Shown: one piece after another, positions 30,366 to 40,888 of the stretch | Position numbering within the stretch: the first letter of the stretch is position 1 | Layout of the letters: each line of letters opens with the position of its first letter | Assembly: GCA_964426415.1 (NCBI GenBank) | Contig: CAYRQM010000003.1 | Location: 9,935 to 73,934, forward strand | Direction: 5' to 3' | DNA length: 64,000 nucleotides | Source of the DNA: an uncultured Christensenella sp. | Lineage (GTDB): Bacteria; Bacillota; Clostridia; Christensenellales; CAG-138 | Program-made: the position numbers and the translations under genes | Notes under the pieces: generated by a model | Databases searched by the model: none | Told to the model about the DNA's origin: nothing | The model's input: only the letters and a program-made list of their open reading frames with translations

Positions 30366-31463
30366 ATGCAGGATTATCAAACGGAAAAGAAATTTGACTA
30401 CACGGAGCGCTTGCGGGCGATTCTTGCGGAGCTGCCGCCGTTTTGCGGTCTGTACTTCCGTGCGCACGAAACCACCACGTCCATCTTGACGCGCTACGGC
30501 TACGCGGTCGATCTGCGCAGCTTTCTGCAATTTCTGACGTCGGGCGACGTCGATGGATTTCCCAAAATGGAAAGCAAGTCCTTCACCCTCTCCGACCTCA
30601 ACCGTGTGCGCTCGTTGGACATCGAGCTGTACTTGGAACACATTTCCCTCTATCAAAAGCAGGTGCAGAGCGGCAAAAAACGTGTAGAAAACCAAGAACG
30701 AGCGAAAGCACGCAAATTATCGGCAATCCGCTCGTTTTTCAAGTATTATTATCGGCAGCAGCTGATCGAGAACAACGTCGCCGCCTTGGTGGACACGCCG
30801 AAGCTGCACGAAAAGGCAATCATCCGATTGGACAACAATGAAGTGGCGGACTTGTTAGACACCGCCGAGTTTGGCGAAGGGCTCAGCAAGCGGCAGCAAT
30901 CGTATCACGATGCCACCAAGGTGCGGGACGTCGCCATTTTGACGCTGTTTTTGGGCACGGGCATTCGGATCAGCGAGCTGGTGGGAATCGACCTAAACGA
31001 CGTCGATTTTGAACGGGATTTGTTTGTGGTGACGCGCAAGGGCGGCAACCAAGAAACGCTTGCCTTTGGGGACGAGGTGCGAACGGCGCTGCTTGCCTAC
31101 CAAGCGGAGCGTGCGCGCATCACGCCGCTTGCGGGCAACGAATCGGCGTTCTTTCTTTCGATGCAGCGCAAGCGCATCACGACCCGCGCCGTTGAAAACT
31201 TGGTCAAAAAATACGCGTCCGTCTCGACGCCGCTCAAAAAAATCACGCCGCACAAGCTGCGCAGCACCTATGGCACGATGCTCTATCAGGAAAGCGGCGA
31301 CATTTACTTGGTGGCAGACGTTTTGGGGCACAAGGACGTGAACACCACGCGCCGCCATTACGCCGCCATGACGGAGGAAAAAAGCCGCACCGCCACCAAG
31401 TACATCCACCTGCGTGAGGATGATGCGCCAAGCGACGATTCCGACACGCCGCAGGAGGACTAA
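30366..31463 (+). CDS. Tyrosine recombinase (XerC/XerD family)
   Basis: Start at ATG 30366 (GGAGG 8 nt upstream). Catalytic R (GTGIRISEL), HKLRST, GHKDVNTTRRHY. Confidence 0.85.
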   Translation: MQDYQTEKKFDYTERLRAILAELPPFCGLYFRAHETTTSILTRYGYAVDLRSFLQFLTSGDVDGFPKMESKSFTLSDLNRVRSLDIELYLEHISLYQKQVQSGKKRVENQERAKARKLSAIRSFFKYYYRQQLIENNVAALVDTPKLHEKAIIRLDNNEVADLLDTAEFGEGLSKRQQSYHDATKVRDVAILTLFLGTGIRISELVGIDLNDVDFERDLFVVTRKGGNQETLAFGDEVRTALLAYQAERARITPLAGNESAFFLSMQRKRITTRAVENLVKKYASVSTPLKKITPHKLRSTYGTMLYQESGDIYLVADVLGHKDVNTTRRHYAAMTEEKSRTATKYIHLREDDAPSDDSDTPQED

Positions 31464-31723
31464 ATCTTTTCTTCGTCCAAATACACGCCGTCGATGTCGA
31501 TGTCCACATAGTCGCCTTCGGGCTCTAAGCAGCGGAAGCAGTTGTCGCAAATCTTGTTCGGATCCAAGATGCAGCGGTCGTCGTCCTCCTCCGCGTCGCA
31601 TTTGCCGCAGTTGTCGCAGACCTTTTGCAGGTCGTAGATGCAGCGGTTGTCGCATTCGCCGCAGTTGATGCACGTTTCGTGCAAGCCCAGCACGCAGCGT
31701 TCGGTCGAATCATTTTCGGTCAA
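31460..31723 (-). CDS. Small acidic cysteine-rich protein, three Cys4 repeats (unassigned family)
   Basis: 87 codons. TTG start with GAAGGG SD 6 nt upstream. Repeats RCVLGLHETCINCGEC, RCIYDLQKVCDNCGKC, RCILDPNKICDNCFRC. D/E-rich tail. Divergent from lexA. Confidence 0.6.
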   Translation of the reverse strand: MTENDSTERCVLGLHETCINCGECDNRCIYDLQKVCDNCGKCDAEEDDDRCILDPNKICDNCFRCLEPEGDYVDIDIDGVYLDEEKI

Positions 31724-31738
31724 AGAAATCCCTTCTTT

Positions 31739-31752
31739 CGAACAAATGTTTG
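31739..31752. promoter_or_regulatory. LexA operator (Cheo/SOS box)
   Basis: CGAACAAATGTTTG against the Firmicute consensus CGAAC-N4-GTTCG (one mismatch). It overlaps the lexA -35 and lies 15 nt upstream of the Cys-rich ORF start. Confidence 0.7.
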
Positions 31753-31778
31753 CATTTTGGGAATTGCTGTGGTATACT
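31750..31778 (+). promoter_or_regulatory. lexA promoter
   Basis: TTGCAT (31750-55), 17 nt, TATACT (31773-78). GGAGG at 31789. Confidence 0.6.
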
Positions 31779-31798
31779 GAAACTGAACGGAGGTGCGT

Positions 31799-32416
31799 AT
31801 GAAACCTTTATCCGCTGTCCGCAGCAAAATATACCAATTCATCCGCCAAGCCCAATCCAAAAACGGCTATCCGCCCACCGTGCGCGAAATTTGTCTCGGC
31901 GTGGGGCTTTCCTCACCCGCTTCGGTGCAGTATCACCTGCGCGCTCTCGAAGAAGACGGCTATCTCGTCCGCGATCCCAACAAGAACCGCGCCTACACGC
32001 CCAATGTGCGGCAGTCGTCCTTTGCGCCCGATGCGGTGCCGCTGCTTGGCAAGGTTGCGGCGGGCTATCCCATCAACGCCGAGGAAAACCGCGAGGACGC
32101 CTTCCCCGTTCCCCCCTTGCTGCGGCACGGCACCACATCCGAAGATGCGTTTATGGTGCGCGTGCAAGGCGAAAGCATGACGGGCGCAGGCATTCACGAC
32201 GGCGATATCCTTGTGGCGGAACGCGGCCGTGCGCTGTGCGGAAACGACATCGTGGTCGCACGGGTGCATGGCGAGGACGTCACGGTCAAGCGACTGCGCC
32301 AAGACGGCAGCACCGTCACCCTCATTCCCGAAAACGACGCCTTCTCCCCCATGACCTTCCCTGCCGCCGAGGTAGAGATTATGGGCGTGGTTTCCGGCTT
32401 GATGCGCCGCTATTGA
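31799..32416 (+). CDS. lexA: LexA repressor
   Basis: Start at ATG 31799. Winged-helix N-domain (GYPPTVREI), Ala-Gly cleavage site VAAGYP, Ser in GESM, Lys in VKRL. Confidence 0.93.
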   Translation: MKPLSAVRSKIYQFIRQAQSKNGYPPTVREICLGVGLSSPASVQYHLRALEEDGYLVRDPNKNRAYTPNVRQSSFAPDAVPLLGKVAAGYPINAEENREDAFPVPPLLRHGTTSEDAFMVRVQGESMTGAGIHDGDILVAERGRALCGNDIVVARVHGEDVTVKRLRQDGSTVTLIPENDAFSPMTFPAAEVEIMGVVSGLMRRY

Positions 32417-33645
32417 CGCAGCGCCTCCACAATCTTTTCTGCCGCCAGCAGCGCGTGCTCATAGGTGAGCGCACCTTGCAGATAGCCCACATAGGGTGCG
32501 CGAATCGGCGCGTCGGCACTGAGCTCTGAGGTCGCGCCCTGTACAAATGCGCCTGCCGCCATGATGACCGGGTCGTCGTAGCCGGGCATTGCCCAAGGCT
32601 CGGGCGTTACAAAGCTATCGATCGGCGCCGCTGCCTGTACTGCCTTGCAAAAGGCAATCAGCTCTTCCTTGGTGTGAAACTCCACAGACTGTACAATGTC
32701 GCTCCGCGCATCCTGCACGGACGGCATTGTTTTGTATCCCAGCAAAGTGAACAGTGCCGAAAACAGCACCGCGCATTTGAGGCATTGGCTCACCGTATGC
32801 GGCGCCAAGAACAGCCCCTGATAGAACGGCCGATAGGAAGCGGCGTAGGAGCCGATCTCACGGCCGCAGCCGGGCACGGTTTGTCGATAGGACACCGCTT
32901 CGATCAGATCCTTTCTGCCCGCGATATACCCACCCGTGGGCGCCACGCCGCCGCCACAGTTTTTGATCAGGCTGCTTGCCATCAGATCCGCGCCGACCGC
33001 AACGGGTTCCTGCGCTTCGGTAAACTCGCCATAGCAGTTGTCCACAAAAAACAGCACATCGCTGCGCACCGCTTTGAGCGCGGCAATGCAGCGTCCGATC
33101 TCGTCGACGGAGATGGCGTTGCGCCATGCGTAGCCACGAGAACGCTGCAAATAGACCATCTTGATGCGCGGCGATTTTGTAAGCTGCTGCTTTGCGGCTT
33201 CGACGTCGATGGCGTCCTTTTGCAGCGGGATCGCCGTGAAGTGGATGCCGAAGCGGTGCAGCGCATTGGGCAAATCGCCCTCCATACCGACGGCGTTTAC
33301 CAACGTATCGTAGGGCGTTCCCGTGACGGAAAGCACCTCGTCCTGCGGCTCTAAAACGCCGCTCAACGCCAAATAGATGGCGTGGGTGCCATTGGCAATC
33401 TGCGGGCGCACCAAGGCGTCCTCGGCGCCTAAAGCGTCTGCAAACACGCGATCCAGCGTGTCGCGTCCGATGTCGTCGTAGCCGTAGCCCTCCGTGGGCG
33501 CAAAGTGCCGCGCCGACACGGCGTTCTTTTGGAATGCGTTCAAGACGCGGCGCTGACACAGCAGCGCGTTCTGTTGGATTTTTTGAAATGCGTCCGACGC
33601 CAGCGCTTCCGCTTGGCGCAGGATGGCTTGATTGGATTCGTTCAT
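32410..33645 (-). CDS. Met gamma-lyase-family PLP enzyme (YnbB / aluminium-resistance-protein family)
   Basis: Start trimmed to ATG 33645 (AAAAGGAG SD, ATGA overlap with miaA). N-terminal region ...HFAPTEGYGYDDIGRDTLD is typical of this family. Confidence 0.75.
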   Translation of the reverse strand: MNESNQAILRQAEALASDAFQKIQQNALLCQRRVLNAFQKNAVSARHFAPTEGYGYDDIGRDTLDRVFADALGAEDALVRPQIANGTHAIYLALSGVLEPQDEVLSVTGTPYDTLVNAVGMEGDLPNALHRFGIHFTAIPLQKDAIDVEAAKQQLTKSPRIKMVYLQRSRGYAWRNAISVDEIGRCIAALKAVRSDVLFFVDNCYGEFTEAQEPVAVGADLMASSLIKNCGGGVAPTGGYIAGRKDLIEAVSYRQTVPGCGREIGSYAASYRPFYQGLFLAPHTVSQCLKCAVLFSALFTLLGYKTMPSVQDARSDIVQSVEFHTKEELIAFCKAVQAAAPIDSFVTPEPWAMPGYDDPVIMAAGAFVQGATSELSADAPIRAPYVGYLQGALTYEHALLAAEKIVEALRQ

Positions 33646-39012: not shown

Positions 39013-39338
39013 ACGTTCTCCCTATGTTCGCAGTCGGAATGGCAGGTGCTGCAGTTGCAGTCGCACGGCATGGTCATAACGGCGCGCTCCAAAAGCGCTT
39101 TTTCCATGGATTCCTTCGCGTCGAAGTATTGCTGATACAGCGCATTTTTGGAAATGCAGCCGGAGAGATATTCGACGTCGTTGGTGAGCCGAATCGCCTC
39201 GGCGGCGTCGTATGCCTCGTCTTGCAGCAGCGTGACCAGCGCCTGCGACTTTTCGTGATATTCGTCAATGATTTTCATGAGCGCCGCATCCTTGCGGACT
39301 TGTTCGGACAGCTCCAGATAGCGTTTCAGTTCATCCAT
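39009..39338 (-). CDS. YlbF/YmcA-family protein with C-terminal Cys/His cluster
   Basis: 109 aa helical protein in the position of B. subtilis ymcA (between miaB/ymcB and mutS). Tail MPCDCNCSTCHSDCEHRENV. Confidence 0.6.
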   Translation of the reverse strand: MDELKRYLELSEQVRKDAALMKIIDEYHEKSQALVTLLQDEAYDAAEAIRLTNDVEYLSGCISKNALYQQYFDAKESMEKALLERAVMTMPCDCNCSTCHSDCEHRENV

Positions 39339-40743
39339 GGATCATTTCCCCCAACAGTGAATTCTTTTCGATGCGATCGACCCGCACCGTGACATAGTGA
39401 TCAAACAGCACAGGCGAGCCCGCAAAGTAGACCATTTTGAAATTGTTGTACTTGCCAAAGAGCATCGTGGTTTCGCCGCGCGCGTCGCAGCCCTCGACCA
39501 GCACTTCGCCGACGTGCCCCAAATACTTGCGGTTGTTCTCCCCCGTCTTTTTCGCCTGCAGCGCGTTCAGCGTTTGCAGCCGTTGCTTTTTGACCGATTC
39601 GGGCACTTGATCGGGCATGGAAGCAGCGACGGTGCCGACACGGGGCGAATAGGCAAAGGTGAAGGCGGCGGCAAACCCCACTTCGTCAATGAGCGAAAGC
39701 GTTTCTTGGTATTCGGCGTCCGTCTCGCCCGGAAAGCCTACGATCACATCGGTGGTGAATTCGATGTCGGGCACCAATGCGCGAAGCCGTTCGATGATGG
39801 TAAGATACGACGCGCGCGTGTATTTGCGGTTCATGCGTTTGAGCACCGCGTCACTGCCCGACTGCACGGGCAAATGCACATGGTGGCAAACGTGATTGCA
39901 TTCTGCGATGGCTTGCATGACGTCCTCGGTCAAATCCTTGGGATGTGAGGACATAAAGCGCAAACGCTTCAGCCCTGCGACGTCGTTGAGCTGTCGCAGC
40001 AGCGTCGCAAACGAAATGCCGTCTGGAATATCGTTTCCGTACGAGTTGACGTTTTGCCCAAGCAGGGTGATTTCCGAAACGCCCGCGGCGCAAAGCGCGG
40101 TCATTTCGGCGCGAATGTCCTCGGGACGGCGGCTGCGCTCACGTCCGCGCACATAGGGCACGATGCAGTAGGAGCAGAAGTTGTTGCAGCCGTACATGAT
40201 ATTGACAAAAGCGGAACGCGGATTGTCGCGCAGCATCGGCAATCCTTCCGCAATGGCGAAGTCGGATTCGTCGGTGACGGCAAGGCGTTCGCCGTTGCGC
40301 ACCTTGGAAAACAGCTCAGGCAGCCGATACAGCACATGGGTGCCAAAGATGAGATTGACGTGCGGGAACCGACGCAAAAGCTTTTTTGCCATGCCGTCCT
40401 GCTGCATCATGCAGCCGCAAATGCCGATAATCAGCCCCGGATTGGCTTGCTTTTGATCTTTGAGCGCGCCGATATTGCCCATGAGCCGCTTTTCGGCATG
40501 GTCGCGCACGCAGCAGGTGTTGTACAAAATGACGTTGGCAGATTCCTTGCAGTCGGCTTCCAAATAGCCAATCTCGCTTAAGACGCCCTTGATGGTTTCG
40601 CTGTCGCGGACGTTCATTTGGCAGCCAAACGTTTCGACAAAAAAAGTTTGGTGCAGCGGTGCAAGCTCGGCACAAAGTGATTCTGCAATGGATTTCTGAC
40701 GCTGTAATTCGGATGCGGGGACAAAAACACGTTCTGACATCAT
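39331..40743 (-). CDS. miaB: tRNA-2-methylthio-N6-dimethylallyladenosine synthase
   Basis: 470 aa. N-terminal UPF0004 Cys triad, radical SAM CNNFCSYCIVP, C-terminal TRAM domain. Confidence 0.93.
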   Translation of the reverse strand: MMSERVFVPASELQRQKSIAESLCAELAPLHQTFFVETFGCQMNVRDSETIKGVLSEIGYLEADCKESANVILYNTCCVRDHAEKRLMGNIGALKDQKQANPGLIIGICGCMMQQDGMAKKLLRRFPHVNLIFGTHVLYRLPELFSKVRNGERLAVTDESDFAIAEGLPMLRDNPRSAFVNIMYGCNNFCSYCIVPYVRGRERSRRPEDIRAEMTALCAAGVSEITLLGQNVNSYGNDIPDGISFATLLRQLNDVAGLKRLRFMSSHPKDLTEDVMQAIAECNHVCHHVHLPVQSGSDAVLKRMNRKYTRASYLTIIERLRALVPDIEFTTDVIVGFPGETDAEYQETLSLIDEVGFAAAFTFAYSPRVGTVAASMPDQVPESVKKQRLQTLNALQAKKTGENNRKYLGHVGEVLVEGCDARGETTMLFGKYNNFKMVYFAGSPVLFDHYVTVRVDRIEKNSLLGEMIHG

Positions 40744-40888
40744 ACGACTCCTATTTTGTTCTTTTCATTTTACATCAAAACGTTGGTTCTCACAAGTCCT
40801 ACTTTTGCAAGTTGCAAAATTTGGCGGTTATAGTTTTTTTCAAACTGCAGAAATTAAGAGCATCACAAAAACAAAGGAGGTGAAACAC

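What the first reader, a model, noticed from the sequence alone, without database searches (positions are those of the whole stretch)
31460..31800. Small acidic 3 x Cys4 repeat protein divergent from lexA, with an SOS box just upstream
An 87-codon minus-strand ORF has a TTG start at 31723 and a GAAGGG SD 6 nt upstream. It encodes three tandem units of the form R-C-x7-C-x-N-C-x2-C: RCVLGLHETCINCGEC, RCIYDLQKVCDNCGKC and RCILDPNKICDNCFRC. That gives 12 Cys arranged as 3 x Cys4. C18 to C28 have the classical 4Fe-4S spacing C-x2-C-x2-C-x3-C, and the tail is D/E-rich (DYVDIDIDGVYLDEEKI). A Cheo-type LexA box, CGAACAAATGTTTG (31739-31752), sits 15 nt upstream of the start codon and also overlaps the -35 of the divergent lexA promoter. 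In B. subtilis the gene divergent from lexA is the SOS division inhibitor yneA. Here that slot holds an unrelated protein that looks metal-binding or Fe-S-binding, so it is a candidate SOS-induced effector. I cannot assign it to a named family.
Basis: partly seen in the sequence, partly recalled or inferred. Interest (0 to 1): 0.7.

Follow-up and report, generated by a model that had tools for sequence, protein, structure and literature searches.

The report
Unnamed cysteine-rich protein beside lexA
A small, acidic, cysteine-rich protein from a very widespread but unnamed Clostridia family lies back-to-back with the DNA-damage repressor gene lexA; it probably shares lexA's operator in this genome, but that operator is lexA's own and what the protein does is still unknown.

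Summary
The 87-codon minus-strand ORF (31460-31723) has a TTG start, a GAAGGG SD and 12 Cys in three C-x7-C-x2-C-x2-C units. It lies 75 nt from a genuine lexA. The box CGAACAAATGTTTG sits 15 nt from its start codon.

The ORF is a real gene. At least 5,364 small acidic proteins are related to it, and relatives occur in at least 433 species-representative Clostridia genomes, including C. acetobutylicum. No Pfam, NCBIfam, PHROGs, PADLOC or PDB family matches, and I found no paper on it. Most members have two units (8 Cys); close relatives have one; this protein has three.

The SOS reading is only partly supported. lexA is the divergent neighbour in 39 of 66 loci. But in 41 of 41 cases the box reads GAACnnnnGTTT with its GTTT end fused to lexA's -35. 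Its distance to the small gene ranges from 9 to 204 nt. It is absent from 36 of 39 loci where lexA is not adjacent. So it is lexA's autoregulatory operator.

In this window, and in Christensenellales, the box lies between any possible promoter and the start codon, so LexA co-repression is likely. In C. acetobutylicum the gene has its own promoter. The metal bound (Fe-S or Zn) and the function remain unresolved.

The parts
31460..31723 (-). Small ORF: 87 aa, TTG start, 12 Cys, pI about 4.05, no TM segment. Member of an unnamed Clostridia family.
   Evidence: Homologues. Called as an 87-aa gene in six metagenome contigs.
31652..31699 (-). Cys4 unit 1 (residues 9-24, RCVLGLHETCINCGEC). Corresponds to the first unit of the family core.
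31598..31645 (-). Cys4 unit 2 (residues 27-42, RCIYDLQKVCDNCGKC). Extra unit absent from most members; 10 of 16 residues identical to unit 3.
31529..31576 (-). Cys4 unit 3 (residues 50-65, RCILDPNKICDNCFRC). The most conserved unit in the family (C51, K57, C59, N61, C62, C65 invariant) and the only one kept in single-unit relatives.
31463..31528 (-). Acidic C-terminal tail with the conserved Y-x2-[IV]-x-I-D-x-[IV] motif (LEPEGDYVDIDIDGVYLDEEKI). Highest-pLDDT part of the AF2 models.
31730..31735 (-). Shine-Dalgarno-like GAAGGG, 6 nt upstream of the TTG.
31739..31752 (.). LexA operator CGAACAAATGTTTG (Cheo-type, GAAC-N4-GTTT). Its GTTT end is fused to the lexA -35.
31750..31778 (+). lexA promoter: -35 TTGCAT (the tool reads TTTGCA at 31749), 17-18 nt spacer, TG-extended -10 TATACT at 31773-31778.
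   Evidence: The same architecture is present in C. acetobutylicum and in a Christensenellaceae-like metagenome chromosome, L005.
31799..32416 (+). lexA (205 aa from the ATG at 31799; SD GGAGG at 31789-31793).
30366..31463 (+). Xer-type tyrosine recombinase, convergent with the small ORF; the 3' ends overlap by 4 nt. It is the most frequent neighbour of the family.
32410..33645 (-). ynbB-like PLP enzyme (PF06838), same strand as the small ORF. In species where lexA is not here it directly precedes the small gene.

Best explanation
What it is. The ORF encodes a soluble, cytoplasmic, strongly acidic metal-binding mini-protein. It is built from autonomous Cys4 units (C-x6-8-C-x2-C-x2-C) followed by a conserved Y-x2-I-x-ID-x-[IV] acidic tail. 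It belongs to a very large, unnamed family restricted to Clostridia. The gene is an old resident of the conserved block mutL-miaA-(hfq)-ynbB | lexA | X | xer-rnhA.

What the box is. The box at 31739-31752 is lexA's own autoregulatory operator, fused to the lexA -35.

How it probably works here. The lexA/X intergenic region is compressed to 75 nt, and the operator abuts X's SD. Every transcript that can reach X must start at or upstream of the operator. LexA bound there should therefore block X as well. X would then be damage-inducible in this lineage, and also in Christensenellales, where a TTGACT-17-TATACT promoter places the box at about +5 to +17. X is not damage-inducible across the whole family.

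What the protein probably does. Each unit most likely holds one metal centre, so three here. That centre is either a ferredoxin-like [4Fe-4S] cluster on the CxxCGxC triad plus the distal Cys, or Zn(Cys)4. The protein probably acts by binding a partner through the conserved tail.

Shown: gene reality, family size, synteny, the operator's register to the lexA promoter, and the operator's absence where lexA is absent. Inferred: LexA repression of X in this genome, metal binding and its stoichiometry, and any downstream role.
For: - Family and gene reality. All eight Cys columns covered by most members are invariant, together with K57 and N61. 265 of 331 members have exactly 8 Cys. Median pI is 4.3, and only one member (P0187) has a marginal hydrophobic stretch.
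- Unit number varies between 1, 2 and 3 while each unit keeps four Cys, which argues for autonomous units.
- Synteny: lexA is divergent in 39 of 66 loci, xer lies within 700 nt in 50 of 66, and ynbB is upstream in 31 of 66. The order is the same in C. acetobutylicum and another Clostridium.
- Recurrent neighbours found by clustering are xer, miaA, rnhA, ynbB and lexA.
- Operator: GAACnnnnGTTT followed by G in 40 of 41 loci, with TTG of the -35 inside or adjacent to the box. The PWM site is present in 43 of 45 lexA-adjacent loci, 3 of 39 non-adjacent loci and 8 of 384 controls.
- Geometry: the box lies 12 nt after a TTGACT-17-TATACT promoter in 13 loci of the Christensenellales-like group.
- In the window the box is 15 nt from the start codon and directly abuts the SD.
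- Fer4-type HMMs are the most frequent sub-threshold matches (Fer4_6 in 10 of 29 members; best Fer4-type E = 0.097, PF00037 Fer4). There are weak PDB-profile hits to clostridial ferredoxins (E = 2-7).
Against: - No sigma-70-like promoter for the small gene was found on the minus strand of the window. Its expression and its response to LexA are therefore unproven.
- The strong overlapping lexA promoter could even out-compete it after induction.
- LexA sites are missing wherever lexA is not adjacent, and the gene has independent promoters in other lineages. SOS control is therefore not a family trait and may be incidental.
- All Fer4 matches are far below the gathering scores. The CxxCxxCxxxCP signature is not conserved.
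- AF2 gave only pLDDT 54-58, and Foldseek found nothing. The fold and the metal are unknown.
Confidence: 0.55

Rival explanations
1. Dedicated SOS effector. The protein is the functional replacement of YneA/SulA in these Clostridia: a LexA-repressed cytoplasmic inhibitor of division, replication or recombination that acts by binding a target such as FtsZ, RecA, gyrase or Xer.
For: - The divergent-from-lexA position is the one held by yneA, sosA, divS and chiZ (my knowledge; for yneA also PMC8457756).
- The arrangement is conserved in 39 of 66 loci.
- In Christensenellales the box lies at about +5 to +17 of a near-consensus promoter.
- A C. difficile lexA mutant filaments, and that paper names no effector (PMC4689574).
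- The protein is small and acidic, like DinI and YacG (my knowledge).
Against: - The box tracks lexA, not the small gene.
- No LexA site is present when lexA is absent.
- The gene has independent promoters in C. acetobutylicum and other lineages, and it is not in the published C. acetobutylicum LexA regulon.
- It is operon-like with ynbB in other species.
- It has no TM or LysM, unlike the known Gram-positive checkpoint proteins.
- C. thermocellum keeps a YneA-like gene in the divergent slot.
Confidence: 0.17
2. Housekeeping protein with purely historical adjacency. The gene is constitutively expressed, or read through from the co-directional miaA-ynbB operon, and LexA has no meaningful effect on it. 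The box serves lexA only.
For: - The operator's register to the lexA -35 is invariant.
- The small gene lies on the same strand as mutS-mutL-miaA-ynbB. It directly follows ynbB, even overlapping it by 4 nt, where lexA is missing.
- Strong sigma-A-type promoters lie beyond the box in many lineages.
Against: In the window any transcript entering the gene, including read-through, must pass the LexA-bound operator 15 nt before the start codon. In Christensenellales the promoter and box geometry is that of a classic repressible promoter.
Confidence: 0.23
3. Partner of a conserved neighbour. It may be a sulfur or Fe-S carrier working with the PLP-dependent C-S-lyase-like YnbB, possibly serving the Fe-S enzyme MiaB encoded in the same block. 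Alternatively it may be an accessory factor of the adjacent Xer-type recombinase.
For: - ynbB is immediately upstream and co-directional in 31 of 66 loci and translationally coupled in one species.
- xer is adjacent in 50 of 66 loci.
- miaB, miaA and ynbB lie in the same block.
- The protein is Cys-rich with ferredoxin-like motifs.
Against: - All these genes are neighbours of one another anyway, so the association may be inherited synteny.
- xer orientation flips (36 convergent, 14 co-directional) and gaps are 6-514 nt, so there is no tight operon.
- 11 of 66 loci have none of the three neighbours within the set distances.
- There is no direct evidence for any interaction.
Confidence: 0.1

Closest known systems
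YneA / SosA / DivS / ChiZ (lexA-divergent SOS division inhibitors of Gram-positive bacteria)
   Same: Small gene transcribed divergently from lexA across a short region that holds a LexA operator. A YneA-like gene occupies this slot in C. thermocellum (PMC8457756).
   Different: - There is no sequence relationship.
- Those proteins are membrane-anchored with extracytoplasmic (often LysM) domains. This one is soluble, acidic and Cys-rich with no hydrophobic segment.
- Its LexA box is lexA's own and is lost when lexA is not adjacent.
Clostridial 2[4Fe-4S] ferredoxins (Pfam Fer4 clan)
   Same: Small, very acidic, with repeated C-x2-C-G-x-C triads plus a fourth Cys. Fer4-type models are the commonest sub-threshold hits, and there are weak profile hits to 1FCA/1FDN.
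   Different: - All scores are far below the gathering thresholds.
- The fourth-Cys spacing is x2 or x3 with no following Pro.
- The distal Cys lies N-terminal to the triad.
- Units number 1-3.
- No ferredoxin fold was predicted.
Small Cys4 zinc-finger regulators with acidic tails (for example YacG, a gyrase inhibitor; DksA/TraR). From my own knowledge.
   Same: Size, one or more Cys4 sites, an acidic C-terminal segment, and action by protein binding.
   Different: No detectable homology. The Cys pattern is C-x8-C-x2-C-x2-C rather than two CxxC knuckles. The analogy is functional only and was not tested.
SCIFF six-cysteine peptides of Clostridia (TIGR03973). From my own knowledge.
   Same: Small, Clostridia-wide, with CGEC-like Cys motifs.
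   Different: No NCBIfam hit. No adjacent radical-SAM maturase. It is much more acidic and has a different Cys pattern.

Membership tests
LexA regulon (SOS gene) | LexA operator (GAAC-N4-GTTC/T) overlapping or downstream of the gene's promoter | tested here: inconclusive
   The operator is present 15 nt upstream of the start codon. No promoter for the small gene could be located. By geometry, any promoter must lie at or upstream of the box.
LexA regulon (SOS gene) | The operator is conserved with the gene across species, independently of other LexA targets | tested here: not met
   The site is present in 43 of 45 loci with adjacent lexA but only 3 of 39 without (one species, weak site inside ynbB). 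The box's register is fixed to the lexA -35 and variable relative to the small gene.
LexA regulon (SOS gene) | Induction by DNA damage, and LexA binding in vitro | not testable with these tools
   Needs RNA-seq or qPCR with and without mitomycin C, plus EMSA or footprinting.
YneA-type SOS division inhibitor | N-terminal TM or signal anchor and an extracytoplasmic (LysM) domain | tested here: not met
   The maximum Kyte-Doolittle 19-residue window is 0.22, and there is no LysM or any other Pfam hit.
4Fe-4S ferredoxin (Pfam Fer4 clan; PROSITE-type C-x2-C-x2-C-x3-C-P) | HMM score above the gathering threshold | tested here: not met
   Best Fer4-type E-values are 0.097-1.6 for family members. The window protein scores 8.3 bits against a cut-off of 27.
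4Fe-4S ferredoxin (Pfam Fer4 clan; PROSITE-type C-x2-C-x2-C-x3-C-P) | Conserved C-x2-C-x2-C-x3-C-[P] spacing | tested here: not met
   The x3 spacing occurs in the window's unit 1 but in only 92 of 338 motif instances in the family (x2 in 235). No Pro follows in the window protein or in the members read.
4Fe-4S ferredoxin (Pfam Fer4 clan; PROSITE-type C-x2-C-x2-C-x3-C-P) | Bound Fe-S cluster | not testable with these tools
   Needs anaerobic purification, UV-vis/EPR and metal analysis.
Unnamed Clostridia Cys4-repeat acidic protein family (defined here) | Core C-x6-8-C-x2-C-G-x-C-D-x(1,2)-C-x-L-D-x-x-K-x-C-D-N-C-x-x-C followed by Y-x2-[IV]-x-I-D-x-[IV] | tested here: met
   Phmmer E-values reach 9e-14. 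All invariant columns are present in the window protein (C28, C36, C39, C42, C51, K57, C59, N61, C62, C65).
Unnamed Clostridia Cys4-repeat acidic protein family (defined here) | Location in the ynbB / lexA / xer / rnhA neighbourhood | tested here: met
   The window has all four neighbours. The same order is seen.

The most novel reading that the evidence does not exclude
The family is a new class of SOS checkpoint or DNA-transaction effector of Clostridia. On this reading it is a cytoplasmic, metal-cluster-bearing (possibly redox-sensitive Fe-S) mini-protein, released from LexA repression in lineages with a compact lexA/X region. It would bind a division, replication or Xer/FtsK recombination target through its conserved acidic tail. 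That would fill the role that membrane-anchored YneA-type proteins play in Bacilli.
Probability: 0.15. Interest if true: 0.8.

Novelty: new variant of a known kind. Interest (0 to 1): 0.45.

Why it matters
- No SOS division or checkpoint effector was identified for Clostridia in the papers read here. A C. difficile lexA mutant filaments, and that paper names no effector (PMC4689574).
- This work defines a family of at least 5,000 members, present in genetically tractable species (C. acetobutylicum, C. ljungdahlii), that holds the lexA-divergent slot and has no annotation or literature.
- The comparative data give a sharp, testable prediction. The gene should be damage-inducible where the box lies within or just downstream of its promoter (this organism, Christensenellales). 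It should be constitutive where it has its own promoter (C. acetobutylicum).
- Even if it is not an SOS effector, it is a near-universal Clostridia mini-protein with a modular set of 1-3 Cys4 sites. It is a good candidate for a new Fe-S or Zn domain family and deserves a database entry.

Tried and rejected
- Profile libraries. Pfam, NCBIfam, PHROGs and PADLOC gave no family for the window protein or for four or five diverse members.
- PDB sequence profile search. Only insignificant hits appeared: eS26, Ku and ferredoxin at E = 0.2-7.
- Structure prediction. AF2 with 29 and then 122 sequences gave pLDDT 53.8 and 57.6, which is not usable. Foldseek against the PDB returned nothing. I did not run the AFDB fold searches on such a poor model.
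- Literature. I searched the motif strings, locus tags near CAC1832, and LexA together with Clostridium. Nothing on this family turned up.
- SCIFF or another radical-SAM-modified peptide. Rejected: no NCBIfam hit and no adjacent maturase.
- Phage or defence origin. Rejected: one weak hit in 2.9 million viral contigs and no PADLOC hit.
- Fusion with DUF6062 in L043/L051. Rejected: a stop codon separates the two ORFs.
- A second, degenerate LexA site near the small gene's own promoter in C. acetobutylicum. None seen.
- Promoter for the small gene in the window. None reached the set thresholds (9 of 12 hexamer matches; score of at least 8). The best candidate by eye, CAAAAT at 31757-31762, has a poor -35.
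- Exact look-up of the 87-aa sequence failed, although the gene is called in six contigs. This is probably a start-residue or indexing issue, and I did not pursue it.
Full report
**1. Observation**

A minus-strand ORF at 31460-31723 starts with TTG and has GAAGGG 6 nt upstream. It encodes 87 aa. Cys lie at residues 10, 18, 21, 24, 28, 36, 39, 42, 51, 59, 62 and 65, which makes three R-C-x7-C-x2-C-x2-C units. The protein has 25 D/E against 8 K/R, a pI of about 4.05, and no hydrophobic segment.

Seventy-five nucleotides away on the plus strand is a genuine lexA. TIGR00498 scores 176.6 bits against a cut-off of 110.95, and the S24 peptidase and LexA DNA-binding domains are present. Its likely start is the ATG at 31799, after GGAGG. 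The lexA promoter is TTGCAT, 17 nt, then TG-n-TATACT. CGAACAAATGTTTG at 31739-31752 overlaps its -35.

The 12-mer is not rare by itself: the window has 8 matches against 5.05 expected. Its significance has to come from comparison with other genomes. Gene callers found the same 87-aa gene in six metagenome contigs. Four of those copies are identical, and the most divergent has three conservative changes and three synonymous ones.

**2. The protein family**

- **No named family.** No Pfam, NCBIfam, PHROGs or PADLOC model matches the window protein or diverse relatives.
- **No solved relative.** A PDB profile search gave nothing significant.
- **Size.** A phmmer-type search found 56 small proteins. 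A profile search found 5,364 proteins at E <= 1e-6 among the 8,000 candidates scored, and 595 clusters at 50% identity.
- **Genomes.** These are Christensenellales, Oscillospiraceae, many unclassified Clostridia and a Desulfocucumaceae genome. Clostridium species are represented among the protein hits: C. acetobutylicum, C. ljungdahlii, C. felsineum and C. drakei.
- **Names.** Sources call the proteins 'hypothetical protein' or 'Zn-finger domain-containing protein'.
- **Core.** The core is C-V-L-x3-K-x-C-D-N-C-G-E-C-D-R-C-D-L-D-P-N-K-I-C-D-N-C-G-K-C, then Y-x2-I-x-I-D-x-[IV] and an acidic tail.
- **Cys count and charge.** 265 of 331 members have exactly 8 Cys. Median pI is 4.3. Only one member (P0187) has a marginal hydrophobic stretch, at its C-terminus.
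- **Unit number.** The window protein, P0002 and P0193 carry a third unit. The loci closest to the window by xer and ynbB identity (L003, L004, L016, L021; 64-76%) carry only the last unit plus the tail. A unit number of 1-3, always with four Cys per unit, argues that each unit is an autonomous metal site.
- **Not viral.** Only one weak hit appeared among 2.9 million viral contigs.

**3. Metal and fold**

The C-x2-C-G-x-C triad and the acidity recall clostridial ferredoxins. Fer4-type models are the commonest sub-threshold hits (Fer4_6 in 10 of 29 members; best Fer4-type E = 0.097, PF00037). All of them fall far below their cut-offs.

No Pro follows the fourth Cys in the window protein or in the members read. 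AF2 gave pLDDT 53.8 and 57.6, with only the tail above 70. Foldseek found nothing. Fe-S and Zn therefore cannot be told apart here.

**4. Genomic context**

| Neighbour of the small gene | Loci (of 66 with at least 1.5 kb on both sides) |
|---|---|
| lexA, immediately divergent | 39 |
| Xer-type recombinase within 700 nt | 50 (36 convergent, 14 co-directional) |
| ynbB-like PLP enzyme upstream, same strand | 31 |

Clustering the neighbouring ORFs recovered xer, miaA, rnhA, ynbB, lexA, proC, mutL and valS.

C. acetobutylicum and another Clostridium show mutL-miaA-hfq-ynbB | lexA | X | xer. The window shows the same order, with mutS and miaB further along. In a common gut species (P0016, seen on 183 contigs) lexA and xer are absent from the locus, and the small gene overlaps the ynbB stop codon by 4 nt. 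The gene is therefore an old resident of this block and is co-directional with the miaA-ynbB genes. lexA is a frequent neighbour but not an obligatory one.

**5. Whose box is it?**

- **Sequence register.** I aligned 41 boxes in lexA orientation. All 41 read GAAC-N4-GTTT (three with AAAC), never GTTC. In 40 of 41 a G follows, so that TTG of the lexA -35 (TTGCAA, TTGCAT, TTGATT or TTGACT) begins inside the box.
- **Distances.** The box lies 42-109 nt from the lexA start, measured at the tblastn hit boundaries. It lies 9-204 nt from the small gene.
- **Site scan.** A PWM built from these sites scores at least 10 bits in 43 of 45 lexA-adjacent loci. It does so in 3 of 39 loci without adjacent lexA; those three are one species, with a 12-bit site inside ynbB. 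The control rate is 8 of 384 windows.

The box is therefore lexA's autoregulatory operator. The small gene does not carry a LexA site of its own.

**6. Does LexA nevertheless control the small gene?**

Three architectures appear.

| Type | Where | Geometry | Expected effect of LexA |
|---|---|---|---|
| (a) | 13 loci of the Christensenellales-like group | Near-consensus TTGACT-17-TATACT pointing at the small gene, then the box 12 nt after the -10 (about +5 to +17), then the SD | Repression (classic geometry) |
| (b) | About 10 loci | Box ends 5-17 nt upstream of the -35 of a strong TTGCxA-17-TATAAT promoter, between back-to-back promoters | Repression possible |
| (c) | C. acetobutylicum and 5-6 others | The small gene's promoter lies 30-160 nt beyond the box | None expected |

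For type (c), C. acetobutylicum has TTGAAA-17-TACAAT 66 nt past the box. A published C. acetobutylicum LexA regulon lists lexA (CAC1832), recA, uvrBA, CAC3343-3344 and sbcDC, but not the neighbour of CAC1832 (PMC3828012).

The window resembles type (a) in that the box abuts the SD, with 15 nt to the TTG. No minus-strand promoter reached the scan thresholds. Whatever promoter is used, whether in the 46 nt beyond the box, inside lexA, or by read-through from ynbB, the transcript must cross the operator. LexA co-repression in this genome is therefore likely by geometry, but it is not shown.

**7. Comparison with what is known**

The position mirrors yneA, sosA, divS and chiZ. C. thermocellum has a YneA-like LysM gene in this slot (PMC8457756). 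The present protein is unrelated to those: it is soluble and Cys-rich, and its LexA link is lineage-dependent. It fails the membership tests for both YneA and Fer4.

A C. difficile lexA mutant filaments, and that paper names no effector (PMC4689574). A new cytoplasmic SOS effector in Clostridia would therefore matter. The comparative evidence here argues against a dedicated SOS role for the family as a whole.

**8. Verdict**

- The best reading is as follows. This is a member of a large, uncharacterised Clostridia family of modular Cys4 metal-binding mini-proteins, resident in the mutL-miaA-ynbB-lexA-xer block. In this genome it probably comes under LexA control because it shares lexA's operator in a compressed intergenic region.
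- Its biochemical role is unknown. It could be an Fe-S or Zn protein. It could be a partner of YnbB or Xer, or a damage-response factor.

Interest is moderate. The family deserves a name and an experiment. The 'new SOS effector' reading has roughly a one-in-six chance.

Noticed in passing
window 40778-40789 (minus strand): A second intergenic LexA-like box, GAACCAACGTTT. It fills the 17-nt spacer of a promoter-like TTGTGA-17-TGTAAAAT about 35 nt upstream of miaB (39331-40743; UPF0004 + Radical_SAM + TRAM), which heads the co-directional miaB-mutS-mutL-miaA-ynbB run. This could mean LexA control of the mismatch-repair and tRNA-modification block. Conservation was not checked.
   Followed up: partly
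window 31460-31463 and 32410-32416: Both convergent gene pairs overlap at their 3' ends: xer with the small ORF by 4 nt, and lexA with ynbB by 7 nt. Neither pair has room for a terminator, and no terminator-like site was found apart from a weak one inside lexA (32092-32108, minus strand). Transcripts of each pair must therefore be antisense to each other. Induced transcription of the small gene would run antisense into xer.
   Followed up: no
L003, L004, L016, L021 (closest relatives by xer and ynbB identity, 64-76%): These loci have no lexA between ynbB and the small gene. Their small protein keeps only the last Cys4 unit and the tail, behind a long acidic N-terminus. So both unit number (1, 2 or 3) and lexA adjacency change over short evolutionary distances.
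   Followed up: partly
L081-L083, 3736-5177: In the species carrying P0016 (183 contigs) the small gene overlaps the stop codon of the PF06838 ynbB-like gene by 4 nt. It follows three M42 peptidase genes, with no lexA or xer nearby. This suggests an operon with ynbB.
   Followed up: partly
L043 and L051, 3302-4054: A DUF6062 gene (PF19538, E = 1.6e-84) ends about 15 nt before the small gene on the same strand in two rumen Clostridiales MAGs. A stop codon separates the two ORFs, so this is not a fusion.
   Followed up: partly
Family members P0027, P0038, P0052, P0057, P0311 (Clostridium) versus P0003, P0008, P0240, P0243 (Christensenellales): There are lineage-specific C-terminal extensions. 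In Clostridium the extension is an acidic linker, then [FI]IDD[IV][DE]GLxEIL...YPG[LM]...KK. In Christensenellales it is W...TLPMTYGxRxRR with a basic end. The window protein has neither. These extensions may be partner-binding or nucleic-acid-binding add-ons.
   Followed up: no
window 33642-33645: miaA and ynbB overlap by 4 nt, and there is no hfq between them. In Clostridium loci L084 and L086 hfq sits between miaA and ynbB.
   Followed up: no
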